Positions 2,753-30,893 of a stretch of DNA of 64,000 nt are shown here, in pieces (positions within the stretch are counted from its first letter, which is position 1; every line of letters starts with the position of its first letter). The notes beneath the pieces are model-generated. The model did not search any database. It saw nothing but the letters and a program-made list of their open reading frames with translations, and had not been told where the DNA came from. The position numbers were made by a program, and so were the translations under genes. Origin of the DNA: Eledone cirrhosa (taxonomy: Eukaryota); NCBI GenBank assembly GCA_964016885.1, contig OZ024764.1, positions 62,001-126,000 on the forward strand, read 5' to 3'.

Positions 2753-4247
2753 CCCTTTAGCATTTAAACCAGCCATATCTGGCCAGAATTCTTTCACATC
2801 TTTCAGTTGAAACCAGCTGTAACTGGCGACTCATAATGATGTTAAGGCAGTATTCTCAAAATAGATAATATCAAAATCTCAAATTTGAAATTATGTGAGA
2901 TATGTGAGGTGAAAATACAATAGTATATATAGAGTAATGTAAATGTTATGTGAGATATTATGTGAGGTAAAGCCTTTACTGTGAAAATACAATAGTATAT
3001 ATAGAGTAATGTAAATGTTATGTGAGGTATTATGTGAGGTAAAGACTTTACTGTGAAAATACAATAGTATATATAGAGTAATGTAAATGTTATGTGAGGT
3101 ATTATGTGAGGTAAAGCCTTTACTATGAAAATACAATAGTATATATAGAGTAATGTAAATGTTATGTGAGATATTATGTGAGGTAAAGCCTTTACTGTGA
3201 AAATACAATAGTTTATATAGAGTAATGTAAATGTTATGTGAGGTATTATGTGAGGTAAAGCCTTTACTGTGAAAATACAATAGTATATATAGAGTAATGT
3301 AAATGTTATGTGAGATATTATGTGAGGTAAAGCCTTTACTGTGAAAATACAATAGTATATATAGAGTAATGTAAATGTTATGTGAGATATTATGTGAGGT
3401 AAAGCCTTTACTGTGAAAATACAATAGTATATATAGAGTAATGTAAATGTTATGTGAGATATTATGTGAGGTAAAGCCTTTACTGTGAAAATACAATAGT
3501 TTATATAGAGTAATGTAAATGTTATGTGAGGTATTATGTGAGGTAAAGCCTTTACTGTGAAAATACAATAGTATATATAGAGTAATGTAAATGTTATGTG
3601 AGATATTATGTGAGGTAAAGCCTTTACTGTGAAAATACAATAGTATATATAGAGTAATGTAAATGTTATGTGAGATATTATGTGAGGTAAAGCCTTTACT
3701 GTGAAAATACAATAGTATATATAGAGTAATGTAAATGTTATGTGAGATATTATGTGAGGTAAAGCCTTTACTGTGAAAATACAATAGTATATATAGAGTA
3801 ATGTAAATGTTATGTGAGATATTATGTGAGGTAAAGCCTTTACTGTGACAATACAATAGTATATATAGAGTAATGTAGATGTTATGTGAGATATTATGTG
3901 AGGTAAAGCTTTTACTGTGAATATACAATAGTATATATAGAGTAATGTAAATGTTATGAGATATTATGTGAGGTAAAGCCTTTACTGTGAAAATACAATA
4001 GTATATATAGAGTAATGTAAATGTTATGTGAGATATTATGTGAGGTAAAGCCTTTACTGTGAAAATACAACAGTATATATAGAGTAATGTAAATGTTATG
4101 TGAGATATTATGTGAGGTAAAGCCTTTACTGTGAAAATACAACAGTATATATAGAGTAATGTAAATGTTATGTGAGATATTATGTGAGGTAAAGCCTTTA
4201 CTGTGAAAATACAATAGTATATAGAGAGTAATGTAAATGTTAAAGGG
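2753..4247 (+). mobile_element. Non-autonomous piggyBac-type MITE carrying a 72-bp tandem array
   Basis: TTAA at 2749-2752 and 4248-4251; TIRs CCCTTTAGCATTTA / TAAATGTTAAAGGG (13/14 match); left subterminal region resembles that of the transposase-bearing element at 16533. Confidence 0.85.
2890..4242 (+). repeat. 72-bp tandem array (~19 units)
   Basis: Period 72 (AGAGTAATGT at 2931, 3003...). Unit TGTGAGGTAAAGCCTTTACTGTGAAAATACAATAGTATATATAGAGTAATGTAAATGTTATGTGAGATATTA. Confidence 0.97.
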
Positions 4248-4282: not shown

Positions 4283-4397
4283 CGATATATTCAATGATAT
4301 CTACGTAAAGCCGTATGCAAGAATCGGGCCCTATTTGATAGGGATCCTCTATGGTTATCACCTCTACAATGGGACAGCAAAGAAATACTTGAATGGG
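4283..4397 (+). CDS. nrf-6: Internal exon A of NRF-6/OACYL-like acyltransferase-3 family gene
   Basis: tttcAG acceptor (4281-82), GTAAGT donor (4398); encodes DIFNDIYVKPYARIGPYLIGILYGYHLYNGTAKKYLNG with the family Y.KPY.R.GPY..G...GY motif; ends in phase 0, matching exon B. Symbol denotes family, not proven orthology. Confidence 0.88.
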
Positions 4398-4413
4398 GTA
4401 AGTGTTACATAAT

Positions 4414-4594
4414 TGTTTCTACTTTAGGCACAAGGCCAGCAATTATCCAGTGCATTACTGGTACTTTATTTTATCGACCCCGTAAGGATGAAAGGCAAAG
4501 TCAACCTCGGCGGGATTTGAACTCAGATCGTAAAGGGACGTAACTATGCTGGAAAGCATGGCGTCCGACCCTCTACCGATACTGCCAATCCACC
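4414..4594 (-). mobile_element. tRNA-derived SINE (family A, Octopus-type) with 19-bp TSD
   Basis: Minus strand: A-box-like TGGCAGTATCGG, B box GAGTTCAAATCC; TSD GGGGTAAGTGTTACATAAT at 4395-4413 and 4595-4613; more copies at 17578, 21255, 30898. Confidence 0.9.
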
Positions 4595-4753
4595 GGGGTA
4601 AGTGTTACATAATGACTTGTTATTGTAGAGGGAGAACTTTAAAATGTGTGTTTATATATATATATATATATATATAACGGAAGAAATCTGGTAAGGAACC
4701 AGGTGGACCATAACGCACCAAAGTACTCAATACTTAGGGTAGTAGAGCGGGTA

Positions 4754-9768: not shown

Positions 9769-10191
9769 TTAATTAATTTCAAATAACCAGAATATACATA
9801 TATATATATATATATACTCATATTTATATATATACGCTTCTCACTCACACACAAGAAAAACAAAAAACAAAAATAAATCAAAAATAAATTAAAAAAAAAT
9901 ATATATATATTGAAATACTTAACTAAAACACACACACACGAACTTGTGAGTACATTTTCCTTTAACTACAAATTATTATTATATACTTTCGTCTTTTCAT
10001 TAACTTAATTAATTTCAAATAACCAGAATATACATATATATATATATATATACTCATATTTATATATATACGCTTCTCACTCACACACAAGAAAAACAAA
10101 AAACAAAAATAAATCAAAAATAAATTAAAAAAAAAAAAAATATATATATATTGAAATACTTAACTAAAACACACACACACTCAAAACTAGA

Positions 10192-11361
10192 ATGGCTAAC
10201 CAGCAAAAATCCAAACAGAACTGGTCTGATAATGAAATCGACATTCTAATAAACACATGGCATTGCCTTTCCCAAACAGAAAATATAGATGCTTCATCTC
10301 TGAACGACATTGCTAAACGTACAGTTCAATTTTTGAAAACTCGATCTGAACAACAGATTCAAAATAAATTAAAGCAAATCGAAATTGCTTTTAAATTAAT
10401 CAATAAACATTTGGATAAACTACGGTGTGTTTTCTCTTCGAATGCTGTCCAGCAGCAGCAACAACAACAACAGCAGCTACAACAGCAACAACAACAACAG
10501 CTACAACAACAACATCAACAACAGCTACAACAACAACATCAACAACAGCAACAACAACAACAACAGTGTGAACCACTCCTTGATTCATCAACAATGGCCG
10601 ATCTACTAAATGAAACTATTGACCCCCCAGTAGCCTCTGTCTCACAGCATGAAACGCCACATCCTTTCTCTGGCCCAGCAGTCCAATCATCACCACTGCC
10701 AACATCTCTGCCTACTACTACTACTACTACTACTACAACATTTTTGTCTACTGCTATGTCAAGGAATTTACCTTCTAATACCAGAACAAGAACTCTCCCT
10801 CCCACAGTCCACAAAGGTCGTCAAATCCTACCCAAACCATCATCTACACCTCTCACAACACCCACACCCACATACCCACCCACTCGAAACCCCATCATTT
10901 GCCGCTACTCTCTACGCTATAGAATATGTACGGATAGTGGCTGCAAATTCACCCATTTACCTAGGACAAAACGATCTATCCCCACAAACAGCCACCACCA
11001 TAATACATACTCTAATTTAACACCAACACAACCACCAATAACTCAAACAAGGAATCCACAAATCTGCCGTTTTTCCCTGCGAGACAGATTGTGTTTAGAC
11101 CGGGATTGTCCCTTTACCCATCTCCCGGGGACCCGTCGGATAAATGAAAATAAAATTAAAAATAAAAGCAAAAACAAAAACCATAACCTACATAAAAATA
11201 ACCACTACCACAGTCACCAACAGTCTTCTAAACAGGAAACTTCTTCCTCTTTTTTAGCCATAATGAATCTGGCAAAAGAACTGGAAAAAAACATTCGAGC
11301 TATCACCCAGCACCACCCTCCACTATCACCCCACTGCACAAACTCCCATTGCTGCCATTAA
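10192..11361 (+). CDS. LINE ORF1: Myb/SANT-like N-terminus, polyQ, P/T-rich linker, two CCCH zinc fingers
   Basis: NWSDNEIDILINTW...RSEQQIQNKLKQI; CRYSLRYRICTDSGCKFTH and CRFSLRDRLCLDRDCPFTH (C-x8-C-x4-C-x3-H). Confidence 0.85.
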   Translation: MANQQKSKQNWSDNEIDILINTWHCLSQTENIDASSLNDIAKRTVQFLKTRSEQQIQNKLKQIEIAFKLINKHLDKLRCVFSSNAVQQQQQQQQQLQQQQQQQLQQQHQQQLQQQHQQQQQQQQQCEPLLDSSTMADLLNETIDPPVASVSQHETPHPFSGPAVQSSPLPTSLPTTTTTTTTTFLSTAMSRNLPSNTRTRTLPPTVHKGRQILPKPSSTPLTTPTPTYPPTRNPIICRYSLRYRICTDSGCKFTHLPRTKRSIPTNSHHHNTYSNLTPTQPPITQTRNPQICRFSLRDRLCLDRDCPFTHLPGTRRINENKIKNKSKNKNHNLHKNNHYHSHQQSSKQETSSSFLAIMNLAKELEKNIRAITQHHPPLSPHCTNSHCCH

Positions 11362-14300
11362 CAAACAAACAAATTAACAACACACCAAAACAATTAAAAC
11401 CATCCACTCTCGCCTCTACATTTTTGCTTAACGCCCAAGGCATCAGCCCTTCCACCAATACTCAAAAATGGAAGATCAAATTCCTGGAGGACTGGATTGA
11501 TGTCCATCCAAACCACATCCCTTTCTTCGTCCTCACTGAAACCCATCTCAGTAACCTCCACTTGGAAGCCGAGGTGAAAGTGAAAAATTTCAAAGCCATC
11601 CGTGCTGATCGCGCTGGCAGAAGAAAGGGCGGAACTGCCATTTATGTCCATAATTCTTTCTCAACAGAGGCTATGAACATATTCACTAATGGATACTGTG
11701 AGGCAGTCACTGTATTCAGTCAAACCAACAACCTATTAGTAGTTGGGCTCTATAGGCCACCCCAAACGCCTGTACCATGCTTCAAGGAATGCCTCAACAG
11801 CATAAAGTGTTTCATCCAAGAGTGTCACCCTGACAACATCTTAATGATGGGGGACTTCAACCTCCCCGGAGTTGACTGGTCCACAAACACCCTGCCACCA
11901 GGTTCTTCTGCCTCAACCTCTGACAGGGAAGCTGTGGAATCGCTTCTTGACTTCATGGATGATTTCTTCCTATCCCAACTAGTGCTCGAACCAACGAGGT
12001 GCCACAAAAACGTCCTAGACTTAATTTTCAGCAATCACACTGACAATATCCACAATATTGCAGTGGAGAAAACTCTACTCTCTGATCATGACATGGTTCT
12101 CTGTGATCTGAGATTCCACCGTCCAATATACAAACCCAATGTCATTTCTCCTGTCCATCCGTTTGACGCTATGGATTTCCACAATGCAAACTGGGAAGCG
12201 ATCAGTCATGATCTTGCACATGTCGACTGGTCCTTCACGCACACTCATACACCCACTAACATCAAAAAGTCCTGGCAGACATTTGTGGACACTGTTACAA
12301 ACATATGTGCTAAACACACCCCATTAAGAACTATAAACAAATCTAAGAGCAGAATCCCTAGAAATAGAAAAACGCTCATCAGAAAAATTAAGAGAACGAA
12401 CAAAAAAATCAACAATCTGAAATACTGTCAGCAGCAACACATCAACTTGACTGCCATTTCATCACTAGAGATTAAAAAACATAACCTCCAAAACAACATA
12501 ATGTCCCTCATCAACAATCAGAGAAGAGCTGAAGAGGCCTGGGCCATTGAGAAGATCAAACTCAATCCCAAAGTGTTCTTTTCATTTGCAAAAAAACACA
12601 AAATCACTGGCTCTACTGTTGGCCCTCTAATTGATGAAAATGGCACTCTTCAAGACAATGCTAAAACCATGGGTGAGATACTGCAGAAACAATACTGCTC
12701 TGTTTTCAGCAATCCTGATATGGCCGATCTGGGCTGTATCGGCGATGTTACTCCCCATTACACCTTATCGGACATAACGTTTGGCGCCCCTGATGTCTTG
12801 GCGGCAATAAAGGAAATCAAGCATAATTCAGCAGTAGGTCCCGATAGATTCCCTGCTTGTGTCTTGAAGGCGTGTCAACACCAACTTGCTTCTCCTCTTG
12901 CCAATCTGTGGCGGAACTCACTGGATGCTGGATATGTGCCAGAAAACCTTCTATCCCAGTCTGTTGTCCCAGTTTTCAAAAAGGGAAACAAATCCCTTGC
13001 CGTGAATTACCGTCCAATCTCACTCACCTCTCATATCATTAAGGTATTTGAGCGAGTGGTGAGATCGCGAATGACCCACTTCCTTGAGAGTAACAATATG
13101 CTGAACTCCAACCAGCATGGATTCCGTAATGGAAGGGATTGCCTGACGCAACTACTGCATCACTTTGATGACATTTTGAGAGCCTTGGGAGAGGGTTCCA
13201 ACACTGATGTTATCTACCTTGATTTCAGCAAGGCCTTTGACAGGGTTGATCATAACATTCTACTGAGAAAGCTGTCCAATATTGGTGTCACTGGAAAGCT
13301 GCTGCAGTGGATCAAGAGCTTCCTGTCAAACAGAACCCAACATGTTGTAGTTGAGGGAGTCAAATCAAGCCCAGCCAAAGTCAGTAGTGGAGTCCCACAA
13401 GGCACTGTGTTGGGCCCACTTCTCTTCATCATCTATATTAATGACATCACTGACATCATCAAACACAGCAACATTAAAATTTTCGCTGATGATTCCAAGC
13501 TCCAAAAGGTCATCAATGGCGTGGATGACCGGATAAGCCTTCAGTCAGACCTACTGGCTGTTACCCAATGGGCAGAAAAGAACAACATGTTACTGAACGA
13601 AGACAAATTCGAACTGATCCACTTTGGAAAAGAGGATGCTCTGAAACTCCCGTACTCCCTTCCCTCCGGGGAAACTCTCGTGGCATCTAACAACATCAGA
13701 GACTTGGGAGTAACCGTGGACAGCAACATAAGCTGGACCACGCATATAAGCAGCAAAGTTGACATGGCCCGCAGAATGTGTTCCTGGATCCTCAGAACCT
13801 TCCAGTCGAGAGATTCCCGCACCATTATCCTTCTCTTCTCTACTTTCGCCCGACCACACCTTGAATACTGTTGTCCACTGTGGTCTCCCCACACGAAACA
13901 AAGTATCATGAAACTTGAAGCTCCTCAAAGGGCAATCACGAAAAAGATAGATGGCATGTCAGACCTTGACTACTGGGGTCGATTGGAAAACCTGAAACTT
14001 TACTCACTCCAACGTCGCCGTGAGCGTTATATTATCTGCATGATGTGGAAAATGTTCCATCATCACTGCCCAAATGATGTTGGCATCGCCTTCAAGATAC
14101 ACCCAAGGCTTGGACCCCGTGCTATCCGTCCCATTCAAAAATCTAAATCGCAACTCATAACAACAATACGGCACAATTATTTCACCTCAATCGGCCCTGC
14201 TCTCTTCAACATCACACCAGGACACGTCAAAACAGAAACTGACCACACAAAATTCAAGAAGTCTTTGGACAAATTCCTCCAAGTAATCCCGGACAAACCA

Positions 14301-14369
14301 CCCACACCCGGATATGTCTCCGCAAACAGTAATTCTCTTCTCGAATGGGCCATGGTGCCCAAATCCTGA
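11349..14369 (+). CDS. LINE ORF2: APE endonuclease + reverse transcriptase (CR1 clade); true start uncertain
   Basis: LNAQG, LTETHL, GLYRPP, MGDFNLP, LDLIFSN, SDH; [55 protein letters not shown]. Frame open from 11232; track start is TTG; first ATG is at 11673. Confidence 0.95.
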
Positions 14370-16280: not shown

Positions 16281-16467
16281 TATATATCTGCCGTGCTCTG
16301 GTCCCTGGCCACCATCAGTGCTGTGTCTGTTCTCTACGGCATCTACAATGTTCAAAACGGGGCTACAGTAACTGAAGGAGTCTCTATATTCTATAATGCA
16401 GTCAACCGTACCGTGTGGGGCCTCTGTGTTGGCTGGGTCATCCTCGCATGCACCACAGGATATGGAG
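16281..16467 (+). CDS. nrf-6: Internal exon B of NRF-6/OACYL-like gene
   Basis: tttcAG acceptor (16279-80), GTAGGT donor (16468); [22 protein letters not shown]...[26 protein letters not shown](G) with the family R..W.....W.I.AC..GYGG motif; phase 0 in, phase 1 out. Confidence 0.92.
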
Positions 16468-16793
16468 GTAGGTCTAATTCTTCTATCTCATCCTTTTGTC
16501 TTCCTATAGATATGTATTTGTTTATATATTAACCCTTTAGTGTACAAACCGCCTGAAATCGGCCAAAATTATTTCACCTTCATTTGTTCAAACCGCCCGA
16601 AATCGCCTGAAAACACCCACACTAAAAAATTGTTTTAAAAATAAACAAACCATCATCAAAATCTCGTCATTTCGAGACTGCTATGAGATTAGGCCCTTAC
16701 CGTGAAAATTAACACTTAATATAGTGGAACAACTTACAACAAAAAGTGTTTTTTTAACGTTGAAAGTGCAACAAATTTTTTGTGTGTATCAAC

Positions 16794-17400
16794 ATGGCTT
16801 GTGAAAGTAGCGATACCGACTTTGAAGGTTTTGCACACAACGACATTCAGAATAAACAAGAAACAAACGATTATTAGTGATTTATCTTCAAATGAATCTG
16901 ATGTTTACATTTCTGAAATTTCGTCCGACAGAGATTGTTTGGAAAGTGAAAACAAAGGAGACTCCAGGGCGACATTGAAAATATTACAGCAACGTGGTTG
17001 TAAAATACCACACTAATATATGTTCCCGATTTTATTCAAAATACTGGTCCACAACACACATTAGCTCCCGATGCTAAAGCACTGGATTATTCCATTTTGT
17101 TTTTACCACAAACTTTCTTCGAAGTTGTGGCAGAAGAGATTAATCGATATGCCCAACAACAGATTTCAAATCGAGGAAAACCCGATCTGTTTGGCGACCG
17201 ACAGATGCTGCGGAAATGCAAGCATTTTTACCGTAAATATTATGTTCGGTATAAAACAATTTCCAAGACTGTGGAATTACTGGAACACTGATATAAGGTT
17301 TAGTGATCCTTATATATCAAGTATTATGCCGAAAACAACGTATTTAAAATTAAACCAGTATTTGCACCTGGTTGATACTTCAAATGCCCCTATTAATTAA
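16794..17400 (+). pseudogene. piggyBac (PGBD-like) transposase N-terminal remnant
   Basis: Acidic N-terminus, then ALDYSILFLPQTFFEVVAEEINRYAQQ and, after a frameshift, IMFGIKQFPRLWNYWNTD...PYISSIMPK..YLKLNQYLHLVD; truncated before the catalytic DDD core. Confidence 0.85.
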
Positions 17401-17577
17401 TTTCACCTGCCCATAAAAGTTAAATTTGACCAAAAAAATCAGGTAAAATTATATAATTGTAAATTATTGATATTTAAACATCTACTGACAAAATGTCAAG
17501 CCTGTACATAGAAAATTAAGAAAATTACAAACAAATAAAATTGATAACCCTCTTGAGTACGATTAACTGAAAATAAT

Positions 17578-17751
17578 TGTTTCTACTTTTGGCACAAGGC
17601 CAGCAATTATCCAGTGTATTACTGGTACTTTATTTTATCGACCCCGTAAGGATGAAAGGCAAAGTTAACCTCGGCGGGATTTGAACTCAGAATGGCAAGG
17701 GCCGTAACTCTATGCATCAAAGCATGGCGTCCAACCTTCTACCGATACTGC
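17578..17751 (-). mobile_element. SINE family A inside the piggyBac
   Basis: Closely matches 4414-4594. Confidence 0.9.
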
Positions 17752-18183
17752 GCGAACAGATAAGCATGACGTTTGAAAATTAATGCGAATGCTAAAGGGT
17801 TAATAAAGCTGACAGCTGTATGTATCTATGTATGTAACAAACGGCTGGACCAAACAGCACCAAATTTGCGCTATAGATGTATCTTTTTCCAAGTAAGAAA
17901 GTGAGGGTATTTTTGTCTTCTAAATTTCGTTAAAAGATTAAAGATATTTAATCGTTTATTTAAATATTCACTTCTTTAAAATTTTCAAATGTCAACATTT
18001 CCGGTTATACGACATTCCTCTCTCTTTCTTAGTCTGTCTTTTTAGATAGATACATAGCTATACTGTCGCACCCTTATAATGTGTCTCTGTATGTCTGGCT
18101 GTTTGCATCTGTACATTGACTTCGCTATCTGTGTGTGTGTATATATGTATATATATATATATATATAATGTGTATATATATGG

Positions 18184-21086: not shown

Positions 21087-21637
21087 CAGTTGTCCCTGGT
21101 ATTTGCGGGGGCTACGTTCCCAGAACACCTGCGAATATTGAACGTGGTCCATAAAGATGTCTATAAACGTCAAAATATAACTTAAAATATAATAAAAAAA
21201 GAGGGAGAGTCTTATGTGAAGGGGCATCCAATAGGCCAGCAAATACCAGTATATTGTTTCTACTTTTGGCACAAGGCCAGCAATAACCCAGTACATTACT
21301 GGTACTTTATTTTATCGACCCCGTAAGGATGAAAGGCAAAGTTAACCTCGGCGGGATTTGAACTCAGATCATAAAGGGCCGTAACTCTATGCTTCAAAGC
21401 ATGGCGTCCGACTCTCTACCGATACTGCCAATCCACCGCAATCCACAATAATACCAGTATATTGTTGTTGATAAGTTAGTGTTAAATATATATATTGCCA
21501 TGAAAAAAGACATAAAATAATCACGGAATATATTTACAATCCCCAAAATATTTGGTGGTTTCTAAGAACAATTATTGGTTAGGTTCTTAGGAAAATGTAG
21601 TGAATAACTGGGACTGCGAATGTCCTGGGGTACACTG
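21087..21637 (+). mobile_element. Old Tigger/pogo-like (Tc1-mariner) MITE containing a SINE
   Basis: Starts CAGTTGTCCCTGGTATTTGCGGGGG..CCTGCGAATA, ends CTGCGAATGTCCTGGGGTACACTG; TIRs are degenerate and no clean TA duplication is seen. Confidence 0.5.
21255..21439 (-). mobile_element. SINE family A with TSD
   Basis: Matches 4414-4594; direct repeat AATACCAGTATATTGTT at 21242-21258 and 21450-21466. Confidence 0.9.
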
Positions 21638-21680: not shown

Positions 21681-22206
21681 AAGTCTTTACCTCACATAAC
21701 ATTTACATTACTCTATATATACTATTGTATTTTCACAGTAAAGGCTTTACCTCACATAATATCTCACATAACATTTACATTACTCTATATATACTATTGT
21801 ATTTTCACAGTAAAGGCTTTACCTCACATAATATCTCACATAACATTTACATTACTCTATATATACTATTGTATTTTCACAGTAAAGGCTTTACCTCACA
21901 TAATATCTCTCATAACATTTACATTACTCTATATATACTATTGTATTTTCACAGTAAAGGCTATACCTCACATAATATCTCACATAACATTTACATTACA
22001 CTATATATACTATTGTATTGTCACAGTAAAGACTTTACCTCACATAATATCTCACATAACATTTACATTACTCTATATATACTATTGTATTGTCACAGTA
22101 AAGGCTTTACCTCACATAATATCTCACATAACATTTACATTACTCTATATATACTATTGTATTTTCACAGTAAAGGCTTTACCTCACATAATATCTAACA
22201 TAACAT
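21681..22206 (-). repeat. 72-bp array, inverted relative to 2890-4242 (left part, ~7 units)
   Basis: Reverse complement of the 72-bp unit; stops at the LINE 5' junction. Confidence 0.95.
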
Positions 22207-22378
22207 CTCGTATACGAGAGACGTGTGTTGACGTGTGTGAACAAGCTCGGCTACTGAGTCGGATTTACTTACTCAAAAAGTGAGTTTTGATTAATTTTTT
22301 TATACTGTAATATACGTTAACCCCTTGCCTTGGTCGTCAAACTTTGAGTTAAAAATTTATTACGGCAAACTAATAGAA

Positions 22379-23980
22379 ATGGACGGAATTTTCACATCTC
22401 ATCCTAACGTGAAAGCCACGCCCCCTAAGAAAGGTGATACAGAGAAGCTAGAAGCACAAGGCTCTAAGTCTTCCCTCCTGACTTCTGCAAAAGAAACATG
22501 GAACACGGAATTAAAAGAAAAATTTGTAAAAATGGGTGAAAACCCAGAAAGTCACATAAACGCAGACAAAAACAACAACGACAATAACAGCAATAGTCAC
22601 AACACCAACCAAGGAAAAAATAACGATAACACCAAACAAAGCGAACCCACTACTGGTACCTCCTTTGCACAGGCGGTCCGGAAAACACAAACCTGCAAGC
22701 AACTGGACATTACAACTCTGAGAGAAAAGATGAAGGAAGCGAAACAGTATGTAACTTTCAAAGAAGGAGGAGACTTCACAATCACCTCCCCACAAGAAAT
22801 CAAAAGAGACACGACGCTAAGAACGATATCTTTCAGAACAATTTCCAACATAACAAGGAAACCAACTCAATTATCCCAAAAAGAGATTGAGCTGGTCCTA
22901 AAAAATGTGTGGAGTGATATATCGTTCATACAAAAAGGGCCACTCTATGGGAATATAACGGTCCTAATGAAGGATCAATTGACGGCCAGGAAATACTCTG
23001 TGGCACCAATTGTTTCCAAGATATATACATTTTTCCCCACATATTTAGGGAAAAGAACGCAGAAGATAAGGGTCTCCGGAATCCGGCCAAATGCATGCAT
23101 TTCCTGGGTACTAACAGGATTTTTAGAAGACGAGGACGGAATCCTCTCAGTAGGAGAAGTCACCACAGACGTTTTCGGCGGTTTGAGCGTGGAGGTTCTG
23201 GTCCAAATGAGACCAGAACGAATAGCTAGAATACCACAGAGGGTGTCCCTCGATGGAGAAACATTTATATATATTTCAGCCGAGGGTAGGAGGCCCATAT
23301 GTTACTACTGTTCAAGCAGGGGTCATCTAAGGGCTGCTTGTCCTCAATTGACAAAAAAAAAGGCTCTTTTGCCTACACCCCACACACCACCACCGCCACC
23401 ACCACCACCACCACCACCTCCACCACTACCACCACAACAACAACAAAAACAACAGGGAAAAATAACACAAGACACGGCCCCACCCAAAACAACTCCCAAA
23501 ACACACACAAATACAACAAAACCCCAAAATACACCACTACCCGACAGCACGGACGAGGACCCAGCGGAAACGGCACCTAGTGACGAAGAGGGGGAACCCT
23601 TCCAACCTGTAAAAAGGAAAAAAAGAAAGCACCACTCGAACATAAACGAAACAAACACACAACCACCAACAAAAACAAAACAAACAGAACAAACAAAATC
23701 CGCCCCACCCCAAAACATAACACATACAACAAAACGTAAGCACACACAAGAACAACAAACAAACACAACACAAATAAAACAGTATACATACATTAACACA
23801 AATAACAAAGAACTAGTAAAAACAATACACAAAGACCCTTTGGTGGAAACTGAAGGGCAATTCTTTGCAAGCGCGGCCAACAAACCGCATTTAAAAATGA
23901 TAAGACTCCCAATGGACACCTATGCAAAACTAAGAGAGAACTTTCCTGAGGACGTGGGGAAAACGTACTCGACCCTATAA
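22379..23980 (+). CDS. Tx1-like ORF1 (gag-like, CCHC zinc knuckle)
   Basis: First ATG at 22379; SFAQAV motif, CYYCSSRGHLRAAC (C-x2-C-x4-H-x4-C), poly-Pro, FQPVKRKKRK basic patch. Confidence 0.88.
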   Translation: MDGIFTSHPNVKATPPKKGDTEKLEAQGSKSSLLTSAKETWNTELKEKFVKMGENPESHINADKNNNDNNSNSHNTNQGKNNDNTKQSEPTTGTSFAQAVRKTQTCKQLDITTLREKMKEAKQYVTFKEGGDFTITSPQEIKRDTTLRTISFRTISNITRKPTQLSQKEIELVLKNVWSDISFIQKGPLYGNITVLMKDQLTARKYSVAPIVSKIYTFFPTYLGKRTQKIRVSGIRPNACISWVLTGFLEDEDGILSVGEVTTDVFGGLSVEVLVQMRPERIARIPQRVSLDGETFIYISAEGRRPICYYCSSRGHLRAACPQLTKKKALLPTPHTPPPPPPPPPPPPPLPPQQQQKQQGKITQDTAPPKTTPKTHTNTTKPQNTPLPDSTDEDPAETAPSDEEGEPFQPVKRKKRKHHSNINETNTQPPTKTKQTEQTKSAPPQNITHTTKRKHTQEQQTNTTQIKQYTYINTNNKELVKTIHKDPLVETEGQFFASAANKPHLKMIRLPMDTYAKLRENFPEDVGKTYSTL

Positions 23981-24140
23981 CCGCGTCCTCTTGAAACGTT
24001 TCCCCACCCACACCTCACCAAACACCCCCACTCCACCACAGAACAACACCCCACCAAACAACCCCTCCAATACGCCCATGGATATTGTGCAACCTGCTCC
24101 TCAGGAGCCGAACAGGTAGGTCCTTCCTCTTTTAACCAAC

Positions 24141-27100
24141 ATGGCTGATATAAGAGTTGGGTGTCTGAATGTACGTGGCCTGGGACTGTCTTGGAAACAA
24201 GGCAAACTTTTAAACGATCTCAGGTCGCATAGAATGGATGTAATGGCTATTTGCGAGTCCAGGATCAGCAGCGAGCACCAACTGGCGCCCCTCTTCGACG
24301 ACTTTGAGATCTTCGCATCTCTCTGTCAACCGGGGGGTGGGGGTGGAGTTGTCGTTCTGCTGCGAAAACACCTGGGCCTCGCCATACAGAAGGTGCACCT
24401 GGACCCGGAGGGTCGACTGGTGGTTTTAGACGTCGGCAGTAGTGAAAGTGGAGCCCTTAGACTAATAGCTGTGTACGCCCCTTTTTGGGCAGCGCGGCCG
24501 GAATACTTCCAACGTCTGGAAACTTTTCTGGGAACGTCCCGCTCCTTGCTTTTAGTGGGGGACTGGAATGGTATCCTGGATGCACGTTGGGACTATGTAG
24601 GGGCATGTGCCAATAGAGGGGGGTGTAAAAGCCTCAAAAGGTTAATCGGCCGATTTGACCTGGCCGATAGATATCGACTAGATTTTCCGACTGTACCACT
24701 ATGGACGTGGACCAATCGCAGTGGAACATCTAGGTCGTACCTAGATAGGGTCCTAGTTAGAGAGAACGATAGGGACACATTTAGCTGTCCAAAAATGTTC
24801 ATGGTTGACTATTCGGATCACAAGTTAGTGACCTGCATAGCCAACCTTGATAGAACCCATAGACAGGGACCCGGTTACTGGAAGCTGAACTTGTCCTTAC
24901 CGAGAAGCAAAGCTTACAGTAAACGGATTAGCACGTTAGTTAAGCAGAGTTTGACAGGGGCAATTGTCAACAACAGGTGGTGGAGCTCTCTTAAGAGAGC
25001 AATTAGAATAGAATCGATAGGTTTTAGTCAGGAATTAGCAAGGGATAGGAACAAGACGGAAAGGGAATTAGTAGATAGAGTAGAAGAGGCGATTAGGAGT
25101 GGCAATGTAGCCGGCGTGCTGGCATCAAGAATGGCCTTAGACCAGTTCTTTGAGGTGAAGCATGAAGGCTGCGTTGTCAGGAGTAAAATACGTGCTCTGG
25201 GTAATGAGGGAGCCAAAGCTGTGAGCTGGGCCCGAGTGACAGAGGCAAAAAGTGGGAACAAGTCCACGATTCGGTCTTTGAAGGACCAGGATGGGCGTGT
25301 GATCCTTGAACCTGGGCAGATGTGTGCGGCCTTTCAGCGGCACTTTGCACGACTGTTCGAGAGGGGCGGCGCGCCGGGTGAGACTATGGATTTCAATCCA
25401 TACCTCGACGGTCTGCCGCGCCTCTCGGACGCGGAGGCGAAGTCCTGCGAAAGGACGATTTCAGCTGCTGAGATAGGGGCGGCGCTGAGCCAATGCGGCA
25501 AACGCAAATCCCCGGGTCTCGATGGTCTACCATACGAGCTATATGTAGCGATGCCGGACTTGTTCTCCGATATCCTCGAAGCGGTCTACTGCAACTGGCA
25601 GCAGAACGGGAGAATTCCCAGTTCTGTGACCAAGGGCGTAGTTACGCTGGTGAGGAAGGATGAGAACAAGGGGGATGACATAAGTAACTTCAGGCCCATA
25701 ACTCTGCTAAATACAGAGTTAAAGATTTTGGCCAAGGTGTTAGCGAAGAGGTTGGCGCTTGTCGTTGGAAACCTGGTGGGAGAAGCGCAGACATGCGCAA
25801 TCCCGTCCAGGTCCATTCACGACAATCTCCACCTTATGCGATACATCATAGAGAGGGTAGGGAATGAACCCGGCTTTGGTGGGGCCCTGATCAACTTGGA
25901 TCAATCTAAAGCTTTCGATAGGGTTGACCATCATTACCTGGATGCGGTGCTCGCGGCGGCAGGCTTCGGACCCGTTTTCAGGGGTTGGATTGCTGCGATG
26001 CACAGCAGCAACGTCTGCTCAAGGGTCAAGGTGAACGGCCACCTCTCGGAGCCGTTCCAAATCATGCGATCCATCCGACAGGGATGCCCTCTCTCCTCCC
26101 TACTGTATGTGCTGGCTCTTGAGCCACTACTGCGGAAGTTGGAGCGGTTGCAGGGCATCCCTTTGGAACCGGGATTGCAGAAAGCGGCGTCGGCCTACGC
26201 CGATGACGTGACAGTAATGGTGTCGAAAACCTCGCAAATCGGTGAGATCGGCACCTTACTGGAGGAATATGAAAGGTTTACAGGAGCCAAGCTGAACCGG
26301 GACAAGTCCGTCGGTTTGCAACTCGGAACATGGAGAGGCAAACCGATGCCCTCCAACGACGTCGTCGGACGCTGGACGGAGGGCCCGGTGAAGCTGCTTG
26401 GGGTCTGGTTCGGACCAGACCTCCAGGTGGAGAAAAACTGGAACGAGGTAACGGCCAGGGTGTTTGCACTCACCCAGAAGTGGGCCCAGTGCAAACTATC
26501 CCTGAAAGGTCGAGCGGAGGTGGCGAATACTTATATAGCATCCGTCATCTACTACCGCTTGACCGTCGTGCCTTGCCCAGTGAAAAGACTCGCCAAAATG
26601 GAGTGCGCGCTGTTCCAATTTCTTTGGAACAAGCGGACCCCTTTGGTGAGGAGATCCATCTGCTGTCAACACCCTTCGAAAGGAGGGCTGGGGATGCCGT
26701 GGCTACAGATGCGTAAACACGCATTAAGGCTACGGCACCTCCAGGTATTCCTCACCGGTCAACCGGTGTGGGCCCCGTTTGTGAGGCGAGCCTTTCCCAG
26801 ACTCGTCTCGCTCACCGAGCTGCAATCCTGGGTCAAGCAAAGACCGAGAAAAGTGGGCGACTGGCACATTGAATGTGCCCAGGCGCTCACGGCCCTCTGG
26901 AAAGCGGACCCGGCAATCAGTGGAGACTCCACCTCGACATTCTATAGAGGGTTGGTACGCAGCAGGTGCGACGATGCTCTCGGAGAAGCTCTAGGCATGG
27001 AGGAAGATGAACTGGCCAGTCTGTTCGGTAGGACGTTTGGCCCTGGACCGATGGACAACTTCCAAAAGTCCCTGGCTTGGCAGTGCTACCGAGGGGCTCT

Positions 27101-27578
27101 ACCCGTTCGAGACAAGCTCCACAGGCATGGGAGCCTGGGTAGAGATCCTTTGAATAAGATCTGTCCGAGATGCGTGCATGATGACGAAACCGTTGCGCAC
27201 GCATTCGTACACTGCCCAGGCATTGCTGACCTGTGGGGCTATGTGGAACGACTACTGTCGAGGGTGGGACCAATCCGGTTGACCACCGAGTCCATTGTCA
27301 CGATCAAACCGCCTCCCCCTTTCAAAAACGAAGGAGAGGCGGTTTTTCTCTGTGTGGTAGCCATGGCTAAAGAAGTTGTATGGTGGACGAGGCTGAAAGG
27401 GCTGAGGTCAGACACCTTTCTCTCCGGCCAACAACTGGTCCCCTTTTTCAAATACCATTTTAAAAGAAGGATCAGAATGGAGAGAGAGGTGCTCTACCCC
27501 AGCAAGTTTTATGAAAGGTGGGTGAAAGTAGGGAGAATGGCCAGAGTGAATGGGTCTTCTCTCTATATCAGCCTGTAG
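24141..27578 (+). CDS. Tx1-like ORF2: APE endonuclease + RT + C-terminal zinc finger
   Basis: LNVRGL, VYAP, GDWN, SYLDRV, SDH, GPGYWKLN; KSPGLDGLPYE, FRPITLLNTELKILAK, LDQSKAFDRV, RQGCPLS, YADD, GGLG, CPRC..ETVAHAFVHC. Confidence 0.96.
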   Translation: MADIRVGCLNVRGLGLSWKQGKLLNDLRSHRMDVMAICESRISSEHQLAPLFDDFEIFASLCQPGGGGGVVVLLRKHLGLAIQKVHLDPEGRLVVLDVGSSESGALRLIAVYAPFWAARPEYFQRLETFLGTSRSLLLVGDWNGILDARWDYVGACANRGGCKSLKRLIGRFDLADRYRLDFPTVPLWTWTNRSGTSRSYLDRVLVRENDRDTFSCPKMFMVDYSDHKLVTCIANLDRTHRQGPGYWKLNLSLPRSKAYSKRISTLVKQSLTGAIVNNRWWSSLKRAIRIESIGFSQELARDRNKTERELVDRVEEAIRSGNVAGVLASRMALDQFFEVKHEGCVVRSKIRALGNEGAKAVSWARVTEAKSGNKSTIRSLKDQDGRVILEPGQMCAAFQRHFARLFERGGAPGETMDFNPYLDGLPRLSDAEAKSCERTISAAEIGAALSQCGKRKSPGLDGLPYELYVAMPDLFSDILEAVYCNWQQNGRIPSSVTKGVVTLVRKDENKGDDISNFRPITLLNTELKILAKVLAKRLALVVGNLVGEAQTCAIPSRSIHDNLHLMRYIIERVGNEPGFGGALINLDQSKAFDRVDHHYLDAVLAAAGFGPVFRGWIAAMHSSNVCSRVKVNGHLSEPFQIMRSIRQGCPLSSLLYVLALEPLLRKLERLQGIPLEPGLQKAASAYADDVTVMVSKTSQIGEIGTLLEEYERFTGAKLNRDKSVGLQLGTWRGKPMPSNDVVGRWTEGPVKLLGVWFGPDLQVEKNWNEVTARVFALTQKWAQCKLSLKGRAEVANTYIASVIYYRLTVVPCPVKRLAKMECALFQFLWNKRTPLVRRSICCQHPSKGGLGMPWLQMRKHALRLRHLQVFLTGQPVWAPFVRRAFPRLVSLTELQSWVKQRPRKVGDWHIECAQALTALWKADPAISGDSTSTFYRGLVRSRCDDALGEALGMEEDELASLFGRTFGPGPMDNFQKSLAWQCYRGALPVRDKLHRHGSLGRDPLNKICPRCVHDDETVAHAFVHCPGIADLWGYVERLLSRVGPIRLTTESIVTIKPPPPFKNEGEAVFLCVVAMAKEVVWWTRLKGLRSDTFLSGQQLVPFFKYHFKRRIRMEREVLYPSKFYERWVKVGRMARVNGSSLYISL

Positions 27579-27815
27579 GTGAAAGAAGAGGAAAAAGAGG
27601 AGACGAGGGAAGCACCTACTCTTTGTGCTCCTGAGGAGAAGGGTTACACATTTTTTCCGGGGTGTGTGCGACCCATGTTAATGCCCCCTCCCTATTGAGG
27701 ACTTCGTTTGTTGTTGTTATTTCATTGTTATATTTTTGTACTCGTTAATTATATGTAAACTTCCCCCCTTGTATCTGTCCCTACCTTTTGTGCCCTAGTG
27801 GCAAATAAAGAAACC

Positions 27816-29153
27816 ACTCTATATATACTATTGTATTGTCACAGTGAAGGCTTTACCTCACATAATATCTCACATAACATTTACATTACTCTATATATAC
27901 TATTGTATTGTCACAGTAAAGGCTTTACCTCACATATCTCACATAACATTTACATTACTCTATATATACTATTGTATTGTCACAGTAAAGGCTTTACCTC
28001 ACATAATATCTCACATAACATTTACATTACTCTATATATACTATTGTATTTTCACAGTAAAGGCTTTACCTCACATAATATCTCACATAACATTTACATT
28101 ACTCTATATATACTATTGTATTGTCACAGTAAAGTCTTTACCTCACATAATATCTCACATAACATTTACATTACTCTATATATACTATTGTATTTTCACA
28201 GTAAAGGCTTTACCTCACATAATACCTCACATAACATTTACATTACTCTATATATACTATTGTATTTTCACAGTAAAGGCTTTACCTCACATAATACCTC
28301 ACATAACATTTACATTACTCTATATATACTATTGTATTTTCACAGTAAAGGCTTTACCTCACATAATATCTCACATAACATTTACATTACTCTATATATA
28401 CTATTGTATTTTCACAGTAAAGGCTTTACCTCACATAATACCTCACATAACATTTACATTACTCTATATATACTATTGTATTTTCACAGTAAAGGCTTTA
28501 CCTCACATAATATCTCACATAACATTTACATTACTCTATATATACTATTGTATTTTCACAGTAAAGGCTTTACCTCACATAATACCTCACATAACATTTA
28601 CATTACTCTATATATACTATTGTATTTTCACAGTAAAGGCTTTACCTCACATAATACCTCACATAACATTTACATTACTCTATATATACTATTGTATTTT
28701 CACAGTAAAGGCTTTACCTCACATAATATCTCACATAACATTTACATTACTCTATATATACTATTGTATTTTCACAGTAAAGGCTTTACCTCACATAATA
28801 TCTCACATAACATTTACATTACTCTATATATACTATTGTATTTTCACAGTAAAGGCTTTACCTCACATAATATCTCACATAACATTTACATTACTCTATA
28901 TATACTATTGTATTGTCACAGTAAAGGCTTTACCTCACATATCTCACATAACATTTACATTACTCTATATATACTATTGTATTGTCACAGTAAAGGCTTT
29001 ACCTCACATAATATCTCACATAACATTTACATTACTCTATATATACTATTGTATTGTCACAGTAAAGGCTTTACCTCACATATCTCACATAACATTTACA
29101 TTACTCTATATATACTATTGTATTTTCACAGTAAAGGCTTTACCTCACATAAT
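27816..29153 (-). repeat. 72-bp array, right part (~18 units, some 69-bp)
   Basis: Same unit as 21681-22206. Confidence 0.96.
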
Positions 29154-29216
29154 AGCTGGTTCGAACAGAAAGAGATGAGAGAAATCAGGCCTGATATGGC
29201 TGGTTTAAATATAAAA
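29154..29216 (-). mobile_element. Diverged left end of the same piggyBac-type MITE as 2753-4247
   Basis: Reverse complement ATTTAAACCAGCCATATCAGGCCTGATTTCTCTCATCTCTTTCTGTTCGAACCAGCT aligns with 2762-2818 ATTTAAACCAGCCATATCTGGCCAGAATTCTTTCACATCTTTCAGTTGAAACCAGCT; terminal CCC/TTAA is lost. Confidence 0.8.
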
Positions 29217-29309: not shown

Positions 29310-29452
29310 GTGTGGTAAACAAGATTCTATCTATGAAGGTGATTGTTCCCATCAGCCGGCTGACATATTGTGCCTATCTGGTTCATCCTCTTATTATCTT
29401 TTATTACAACCTTACACAGCTTCATCCACTAACAGCCTCACACATCAACGCA
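29310..29452 (+). CDS. nrf-6: Internal exon C of NRF-6/OACYL-like gene
   Basis: ccAG acceptor (29308-09), GTAAGT donor (29453); (G)VVNKILSMKVIVPISRLTYCAYLVHPLIIFYY... with the hallmark P.SRLTYCAYLVHP; phase 1 entry matches exon B. Confidence 0.93.
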
Positions 29453-29511: not shown

Positions 29512-30733
29512 AGTACCCAGTCCACCCTGTAAACTGGTCATGTAGGTGTCACAACAAACAACATCCAGTCCACACTGTAAAGTGGTCATGTAGGTGTCAC
29601 AACAAAAAGTACCCAGTCCACACTGTAAAGTGGTCATGTACGTGTCACAACAAAAAGTACCCAGTCGACACTGTAAAGTGGTCATGTAGGTGTCACAACA
29701 AAAAGTACCCAGTCCACACTGTAAAGTGGTCATGTAGGTGTCACAACAAAAAGTACCCAGTCCACACTGTAGAGTGGTCATGTAGGTGTCACAACAAAAA
29801 GTACCCAGTCCACACTGTAAAGTGGTCATGTAGGTGTCACAACAAAAAGTACCCAGTCCACACTGTAAAGTGGTCATGTAGGTGTCACAACAAAAAGTAC
29901 CCAGTCCACACTGTAAAGTGGTCATGTAGGTGTCACAACAAAAAGTACCCAGTCCACACTGTAAAGTGGTCATGTAGGTGTCACAACAAAAAGTACCAAG
30001 CCCACACTGTAAAGTGGTCATGTAGGTGTCACAACAAAAAGTACCCAGTCCACACTGTAAAGTGGTCATGTACGTGTCACAACAAAAAGTACCCAGTCGA
30101 CACTGTAAAGTGGTCATGTAGGTGTCACAACAAAAAGTACCCAGTCCACACTGTAGAGTGGTCATGTAGGTGTCACAACAAAAAGTACCCAGTCCACACT
30201 GTAAAGTGGTCATGTAGGTGTCACAACAAAAAGTACCCAGTCCACACTGTAAAGTGGTCATGTAGGTGTCACAACAAAAAGTACCCAGTCCACACTGTAA
30301 AGTGGTCATGTAGGTGTCACAACAAAAAGTACCCAGTCCACACTGTAAAGTGGTCATGTAGGTGTCACAACAAAAAGTACCCAGTCCACACTGTAAAGTG
30401 GTCATGTAGGTGTCACAACAAAAAGTACCCAGTCCACACTGTAAAGTGGTCATGTAGGTGTCACAACAAAAAGTACCCAGTCCACACTGTAAAGTGGTCA
30501 TGTAGGTGTCACAACAAAAAGTACCCAGTCCACCCTGTAAAGTGGTCATGTAGGTGTCACAACAAAAAGTACCCAGTCCACACTGTAAAGTGGTCATGTA
30601 GGTGTCACAACAAAAAGTACCCAGTCCACACTGTAAAGTGGTCATGTAGGTGTCACAACAAATAGTACCCAGTCCACACTGTAAAGTGGTCATGTAGGTG
30701 TCACAACAAATAGTACCCAGTCCACACTGTAAA
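29512..30733 (-). repeat. 48-bp tandem array (~25 units), inverted relative of the 49-bp array
   Basis: Period 48; reverse complement TTTACAGTGTGGACTGGGTACTTTTTGTTGTGACACCTACATGACCAC. Confidence 0.96.
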
Positions 30734-30893
30734 TGTGGTTGGTGTTAAGAAGAGCATCCAGCTGTAGAAATCAAGCCAAAATCAGTTCTGTATGAGCAAG
30801 GCATGGTCAACAAATCTGACCTACTTCAAATGGGACAACTCGTCTAACCCATGCTAGCATGGATAAATGGATGTTAGTGATGATGATGATGAT
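30734..30893 (+). mobile_element. SINE family B 3' part, contiguous with the 48-bp array
   Basis: GGTTGGTGTTAAGAAGAGCATCCAGCTGTAGAAATCAAGCC ... CCATGCTAGCATGG ... (GAT)n tail. Confidence 0.85.

What the first reader, a model, noticed from the sequence alone, without database searches (positions are those of the whole stretch)
21681..29216. Tx1-clade LINE inside the tandem repeats of a TTAA DNA transposon: candidate transposon-on-transposon targeting system
Seen: an intact 5.6-kb Tx1/L1-type LINE sits within the 72-bp array belonging to a piggyBac-type MITE; an uninterrupted TTAA-flanked copy (2753-4247) and a related transposase remnant (16533) are in the same window. Established: Tx1-clade LINEs are frequently sequence-specific, and Xenopus Tx1L/Tx2L insert specifically into internal tandem repeats of the TTAA-flanked DNA elements Tx1D/Tx2D, forming composites. 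Inference: this may be an independent mollusc equivalent, with transposase spreading the MITE, the array multiplying safe target sites and the LINE exploiting them. A single insertion cannot show specificity.
Basis: partly seen in the sequence, partly recalled or inferred. Interest (0 to 1): 0.75.

Follow-up and report, generated by a model that had tools for sequence, protein, structure and literature searches.

The report
Retrotransposon targeting another transposon's repeat
About 300 young copies of a jumping gene in a probable octopus genome sit at one exact base of a 72-letter repeat inside an older DNA transposon, and they likely land so cleanly by carrying a short copy of the landing site on their RNA; transposon-targeting of this kind is already known from frogs and crocodiles.

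Summary
Specificity is confirmed genome-wide. Of 260 exact LINE 3' ends, 251 continue into the same base of the 72-bp unit; the 5 exceptions fetched (of 9) lie at that base in variant units. Of 302 5' ends, 294 share one junction, with 7 bp of target missing. Copies are young (median 1.1% apart) and hosts old (17.9%), and the two are uncorrelated. Truncated and inverted copies end at the same base, so these are independent insertions, not hitch-hiking composites. About 25 nt upstream of full-length copies look overwritten by consensus, which suggests an RNA-borne copy of the target, as in R2; this is untested without RNA. Corrections: this copy's ORF1 is frameshifted, its host has lost both TTAA ends, and no moved composite was found. 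The host is piggyBac-type: about 10,000 copies, with 12-bp ends shared with intact transposase elements. Tx1-clade membership was not tested by a tree. It is a new member of a known kind (Xenopus Tx1L/Tx1D, crocodilian Tx1-Mar). This scan already reported it twice on other pieces of this genome.

The parts
22207..27815 (+). Site-specific non-LTR retrotransposon (L1/Tx1 type), 5,609 bp, no poly(A) tail
   Evidence: 260 exact 3' ends and 302 exact 5' ends genome-wide
22379..23980 (+). ORF1, 533 aa here, shortened by a 2-bp deletion at 23964 (about 580 aa in most copies); weak CCHC knuckle at aa 307-323
24141..27578 (+). ORF2, 1145 aa: APE endonuclease, reverse transcriptase (YADD), C-terminal zinc-binding domain; open
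27804..27815 (+). 3' end: AATAAA plus six bases, joined directly to the target. The last two bases vary TT/TC/CC among copies, so they are element-encoded
22182..22206 (+). Predicted target-derived 5' leader (about 25 nt, boundary between -25 and -30), inferred to be carried on the LINE RNA
   Evidence: other loci; inference
22206..22219 (.). Perfect 14-bp palindrome across the 5' junction; function unknown
   Evidence: sequence
21688..22206 (+). Left part of the host 72-bp array (7.2 units); left terminal repeat and TTAA missing
27816..29154 (+). Right part of the host array (18.7 units), starting at the constant insertion base
29154..29210 (+). Remnant of the host's unique end (84% to the empty copy); terminal bases and TTAA missing
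2753..4247 (-). Empty host MITE: TTAA on both sides, 14-bp terminal repeats, 18.6 units, about 155-bp unique end. The insertion site overlaps a repeated copy of the inner terminal-repeat motif
16533..17799 (+). Internally deleted, broken piggyBac element with TTAA-CCCTTTAG ends and a SINE-like insertion

Best explanation
This is a young family of about 300 mostly full-length L1/Tx1-type LINEs that sit at one base of the 72-bp unit of an old piggyBac-type MITE, likely because its endonuclease nicks that site and its RNA likely carries short copies of the target that make both junctions exact. SHOWN: constant site and orientation; insertion into many unrelated old hosts and at many unit positions; truncated and inverted copies at the same 3' base; shared 12-bp ends between the MITE and intact piggyBac elements. 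INFERRED: (1) piggyBac transposase spread about 10,000 MITEs, and array growth left more than 33,000 targets. (2) The endonuclease nicks the bottom strand at or within about 5 nt of 5'-TAGAGT/AATG-3'. (3) The RNA is cleaved downstream of the AATAAA, inside target sequence, and pairs with the primer, so no poly(A) is copied. (4) The RNA starts about 25-29 nt upstream in the array; the finished cDNA anneals to the upstream target, overwrites it and reproduces the inherited 7-bp gap. (5) Incomplete cDNAs lack this leader and are end-joined with variable duplications.
For: SITE: 251 of 260 3' ends and 294 of 302 5' ends. All 121 distinct 3' junctions in fetched loci enter the unit at the same base: 114 exact, 7 with a variant 9-mer. 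INDEPENDENCE: for 43 loci, 903 pairs, host unique ends differ by a median 17.9% (minimum 5.8%) and LINEs by 1.1%; Mantel rho 0.01, p 0.45. Position is 1-21 units from the left terminus in 50 copies. Six 5'-truncated copies (43-1,777 bp; L074, L080, L106-L109) and one inverted copy (L038) end at the same base; six of these seven show a target duplication of 1 to about 16 bp. FULL LENGTH: 63 of the 67 3' ends listed for C1-C10 have a 5' end (my matching). LEADER: variants fixed in the local array are absent from the junction unit within 29 nt of the 5' junction (0 of 5 local), but present beyond it (25 of 31) and within 29 nt of the 3' junction (20 of 22). Substitutions at -1..-30 number 9 in 66 junction units, against a mean of 39 in five neighbouring units; at -31..-65 they number 74 against 69. 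L128 and L129 are arrays of short (about 60-bp) units only (33 and 41 units parsed), yet the junction unit has the 72-bp-type end while keeping a local variant further upstream. PRECEDENT: R2 RNAs with 13-28 nt of upstream rRNA form precise junctions by cDNA annealing (PMC11331408, abstract and passages).
Against: No RNA data and no cleavage assay. The fixed-variant test rests on 5 sites in 3 loci; L128 and L129 are 24 kb apart and may not be independent. Preference of the endonuclease for consensus units would also lower variation at -1..-10. L106 is 5'-truncated, yet has the same 7-bp gap as full-length copies, which suits a fixed staggered cut (or a later internal deletion). L054 and L100 have a short junction unit among mostly long units, and L047 keeps a variant at -13, so overwriting is not universal. 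In one search positions +41..+65 downstream also fell below the whole-array expectation; only the neighbour-matched test removes this. Many loci were chosen by their 5' end, so full-length shares among fetched loci are inflated.
Confidence: 0.72

Rival explanations
1. Site-specific insertion by protein alone: the endonuclease cuts both strands 7 nt apart and prefers consensus units, and the RNA carries no target sequence.
For: The 7-bp gap is constant (116 of 118 5' junctions end in CATAACAT). L106 shows the gap without a 5' end. A top-strand cut upstream of the bottom-strand cut is a published explanation for target deletions (PMC4640811, passage).
Against: Six of seven truncated or inverted copies show duplications, not the gap. 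Junction units are consensus where 26 of 26 or 8 of 8 local units are variant, and long where all local units are short. The effect is one-sided.
Confidence: 0.18
2. DNA-level copying: the LINE spreads between arrays by gene conversion or unequal exchange, taking its junctions and short flanks along.
For: It explains full-length copies with identical junctions. 17 of 118 5' junctions follow another copy in the same array, and L060-L062 are identical in ORF2 and 3'UTR.
Against: Flank overwriting is on the 5' side only. Truncated and inverted copies with different duplications need reverse transcription. Many copies keep both ORFs open (at least 31 of 111). It probably does account for some tandem stacks.
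Confidence: 0.07
3. One or a few old insertions were multiplied as a LINE-MITE composite by piggyBac transposase.
For: Intact 561-aa transposases with matching 12-bp ends exist. At least 7 of 113 LINE-bearing loci show both TTAA ends within the fetched span.
Against: Hosts are about 16 times more divergent than their LINEs and uncorrelated with them; no near-identical host pair among 43. Unit position varies from 1 to 21.
Confidence: 0.03

Closest known systems
Xenopus laevis Tx1L in Tx1D (PMC4494074 and PMC1950540, passages; the primary paper PMC85248 was not held)
   Same: APE-type LINE inserted at a specific sequence inside a non-autonomous piggyBac family; the Tx1L endonuclease nicks almost only its target.
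   Different: Mollusc host and an unrelated 72-bp target. No moved composites were found here.
Crocodilian Tx1-Mar (Mariner-N4_AMi), Tx1-9_AMi (Harbinger), Tx1-8_Crp and Tx1-4_AMi (LTR elements) (PMC4494074, abstract, section 15 and passages)
   Same: Tx1 families that target other transposons; that paper also used truncated copies to test hitch-hiking.
   Different: Those are described as preferences (a family counts as specific above 20% of flanks). This family is at least 96.5% at a single base, young and mostly full length.
R2 elements with upstream rRNA on the transcript (PMC11331408, abstract and passages)
   Same: Precise 5' junctions by annealing of cDNA to the upstream target, and heterogeneous end-joined junctions without it.
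   Different: R2 has one ORF, a restriction-like endonuclease, a 5' ribozyme and an rDNA target. Here there are two ORFs and an APE endonuclease; what sets the RNA 5' end is unknown.
Human L1 ORF2p (PDB 8uw3 and others)
   Same: Best solved-structure match (E 5e-53, residues 4-857); same domain order; the inferred nick is at a T/A step.
   Different: L1 is promiscuous, polyadenylated and mostly 5'-truncated (established knowledge).

Membership tests
L1/Tx1 group of non-LTR retrotransposons | ORF2 with N-terminal APE endonuclease, RT and C-terminal zinc-binding domain, preceded by an ORF1 | tested here: met
   catalytic motifs align to L1 endonuclease; L1 ORF2p scores far above R2
Tx1 clade (as against L1 clade) | RT phylogeny groups with named Tx1 families (Tx1L, Keno, Kibi, Koshi) | not testable with these tools
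   No homolog was labelled Tx1, so no reference tree could be built
Sequence-specific Tx1-type families | More than 20% of copies flanked by one target (criterion in PMC4494074) | tested here: met
   251 of 260 and 294 of 302
Sequence-specific Tx1-type families | Endonuclease nicks the target in vitro | not testable with these tools
   needs a bench assay
Tx1L/Tx1D-like composite system | Target is a non-autonomous piggyBac-type element with TTAA ends and internal tandem repeats | tested here: met
Tx1L/Tx1D-like composite system | LINE-bearing composite transposes as a unit | tested here: not met
   no matching host pair among 43 loci, Mantel p 0.45; a sample, so rare cases are not excluded
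piggyBac non-autonomous element (host) | TTAA duplication, CCC...GGG ends, terminal repeats shared with an autonomous element | tested here: met
   CCCTTTAGCATT is shared with the right end of the 2.57-kb, 561-aa elements L111-L116; no other similarity to them was found
piggyBac non-autonomous element (host) | Mobilised by that transposase | not testable with these tools
   inferred from shared ends only
R2-like annealed 5' junction | Transcript carries upstream target sequence | tested here: inconclusive
   genomic footprint supports it; no RNA run was available

The most novel reading that the evidence does not exclude
An APE-endonuclease LINE has independently evolved R2-like seamless, full-length integration. 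It borrows about 25 nt of its host transposon's repeat as an RNA leader and a few nt of downstream repeat as a primer-pairing tail, which also steers full-length copies away from the host's terminal repeat (0 of 50 at the terminal site). That would make it a compact, recently active and partly RNA-guided site-specific integrator outside the R2 lineage.
Probability: 0.4. Interest if true: 0.68.

Novelty: new member of a known kind. Interest (0 to 1): 0.45.

Why it matters
Transposon-targeting LINEs are known, but this is an unusually clean, young and countable case: about 300 near-identical copies, more than 33,000 empty sites and naturally variant arrays. How non-R2 LINEs complete the 5' junction is poorly understood. 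The variant arrays act as natural markers and point to RNA-templated overwriting, which 5' RACE or a reporter can test directly. If confirmed, it adds an APE-type enzyme to the short list of candidates for precise, full-length gene insertion. As a survival strategy it is not new.

Tried and rejected
RNA: no RNA holder was listed; this says nothing about expression. Laying contigs of runs X1, X2 and X5 gave no usable junction evidence for a second species. A 65-bp target duplication instead of a 7-bp loss was rejected: upstream and downstream 65-mers differ as much as neighbouring units (mean 3.8 against 4.0 mismatches; identical in 7 of 69). The 39-bp 5'UTR deletion is not a GT-AG intron; it lies between 4-bp direct repeats around a hairpin. 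A second LINE family at the same site: among the first 100 of 268 matches listed, 96 were this family's 3' end variants and 4 were other sequences that I did not follow. The first host-divergence run wrongly included LINE 5' ends and was redone. A protein search for diverged subfamilies returned only 99-100% copies (150 scored of 37,080 candidates), so older relatives and their targets were not examined. The ESM Atlas gave no clade name. Literature: seven answered searches and term look-ups in two cephalopod repeat papers (PMC13282606, PMC8967140; passages only) showed no description of this target. Repbase, most subscription journals and all supplements were not seen, and a family entry could exist there.

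Full report
WHAT IS IN THE WINDOW. A 5,609-bp LINE (22207-27815) splits a 72-bp array. ORF2 is open, with endonuclease, RT and zinc-binding domains, and is closest among solved structures to human L1 ORF2p. The closest named homolog is from Argonauta hians (64% over 59% of the length), so the 3.0-Gb genome is probably an octopod's. ORF1 is frameshifted in this copy and the 5'UTR lacks 39 bp. The host array has lost both termini here. An empty, complete host lies at 2753-4247, and a broken piggyBac at 16533-17799.

SPECIFICITY. The genome holds 260 exact copies of the last 23 nt; 251 continue with the same 9 target bases. I fetched the 5 exceptions visible in the listing, of 9; all are at the same base in units with a variant. 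There are 302 exact 5' ends, 294 with the same upstream 9 bases. In all fetched loci, 121 of 121 distinct 3' junctions enter the unit at that base in the same orientation. The exact empty site occurs 33,209 times and the host's left end 9,940 times, so roughly 1% of sites are filled, and chance predicts about 0.001 hits. These counts use exact patterns and miss diverged copies.

INDEPENDENT INSERTION. The first 39 full-length copies differ by 0.41% on average. In 43 loci with a readable host end, out of 70 full-length copies then in hand, hosts differ by a median 17.9% and LINEs by 1.1%, without correlation. Insertions lie 1-21 units from the left terminus (50 of 118 junctions where it was reached). 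Truncated copies of 43, 50, 51, 688, 952 and 1,777 bp and one inverted copy share the 3' base; all but the 1,777-bp copy carry duplications of 1 to about 16 bp. An eighth copy (L149) is cut by unrelated sequence. Composite transposition is therefore not the main route. Tandem stacks (17 of 118) may partly be duplications.

THE HOST. The MITE shares its terminal 12 bp with a 2.57-kb piggyBac family encoding 561-aa transposases (L111-L116, 96.6-97.7% identical to L111), of which the window remnant is a relative. Mobilisation by this enzyme is inferred. The insertion site overlaps the repeated inner part of the terminal repeat. The terminal site has the same bases around the insertion point, yet 0 of 50 full-length copies, and at most 8 of 302 genome-wide, use it; one 43-bp stub does (L107). 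By exact-pattern counts, terminal sites are about 23% of sites.

HOW THE JUNCTIONS FORM (inferred). 3' end: no copy examined has a poly(A) tail. The AATAAA lies 6 nt from the junction, so normal cleavage would fall inside the downstream unit (established knowledge). The last two bases are TT, as in the target, or TC mostly in older copies and CC in the young clade, so they travel with the element. Local variants appear from +4 onward, which places priming within about 5 nt of the junction. 5' end: 63 of 67 copies on C1-C10 keep the 5' end, and 116 of 118 junctions end in the same 8 bases. Array-specific variants are overwritten within about 25 nt upstream (0 of 5 local), but not further upstream (25 of 31 local) or downstream (20 of 22 local). 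Substitutions there are 9 against 39 in neighbouring units. Two arrays made only of short units have a long-type junction unit. The simplest reading is an RNA leader copied from the target and annealed during integration, as shown for R2 (PMC11331408, passages). The counter-examples and small numbers are listed in the Against line; protein-only staggered cutting is the main rival.

COMPARISON AND NOVELTY. Tx1L inserts into the non-autonomous piggyBac Tx1D, and crocodilian Tx1 families target Mariner, Harbinger and LTR elements (PMC4494074; abstract, section 15, passages). The Tx1L endonuclease is sequence-specific (PMC1950540, passages). The system works like Tx1L/Tx1D; membership of the Tx1 clade is likely but was not tested by a tree. 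My searches found no description of this family or target, with the limits stated under Tried and rejected. Two earlier notes of this scan describe the same family elsewhere in this genome. My specificity and leader tests came before I read them, and extended them afterwards.

VERDICT. A real, sharply site-specific family; a new member of a known kind; interest 0.45, higher if the RNA leader is confirmed.

Noticed in passing
window 4284-4397, 16281-16466, 29312-29452 (+): Three exon-like stretches of a probable acyltransferase-3 gene (PF01757, E 0.0025 on the last, below cut-off; the label NRF-6-like is recalled). The LINE, the remnant and a second LINE would lie in its introns, with the LINE in sense orientation.
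   Followed up: partly
window 10168-14369 (+): A second, different LINE with an open 1,045-aa endonuclease-RT frame and an upstream frame with two CCCH-like repeats, followed by AT-rich microsatellite.
   Followed up: partly
window 31169-64000; 1-1745; 29512-30739: A 53-bp satellite of 616 units fills half the window; related 49-bp and 48-bp arrays lie in opposite orientations.
   Followed up: no
L040:370-524 and L056 right end: Two host ends differ at 1 of 131 bases with different flanks: a young MITE subfamily, so the host may have moved recently.
   Followed up: partly
L131 5' junction: Only 23 nt of target precede the LINE, after unrelated sequence: either a leader joined without homology, or a later insertion or deletion.
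   Followed up: partly
L093:1561-1709: A 150-bp 5' fragment of the LINE at the standard junction, followed by other sequence and then a full copy 776 bp further on.
   Followed up: no
G000 C1:4.22-4.26 Mb; C10:40.72-40.75 Mb and 41.38-41.43 Mb: Stacks of several LINE copies close together, some separated by a single unit.
   Followed up: partly
lists: On the largest contigs (C1-C3) the listed copies lie near the ends, and small contigs carry many copies, while host ends are listed well into C1: possible chromatin or recombination bias.
   Followed up: no
L036:8182-9657: A second tandem array (44-bp unit) has grown from the host's unique end.
   Followed up: no
window 4412-4600, 17571-17751, 21251-21450: Three copies of the same SINE-like element, one of them inside the piggyBac remnant.
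   Followed up: no
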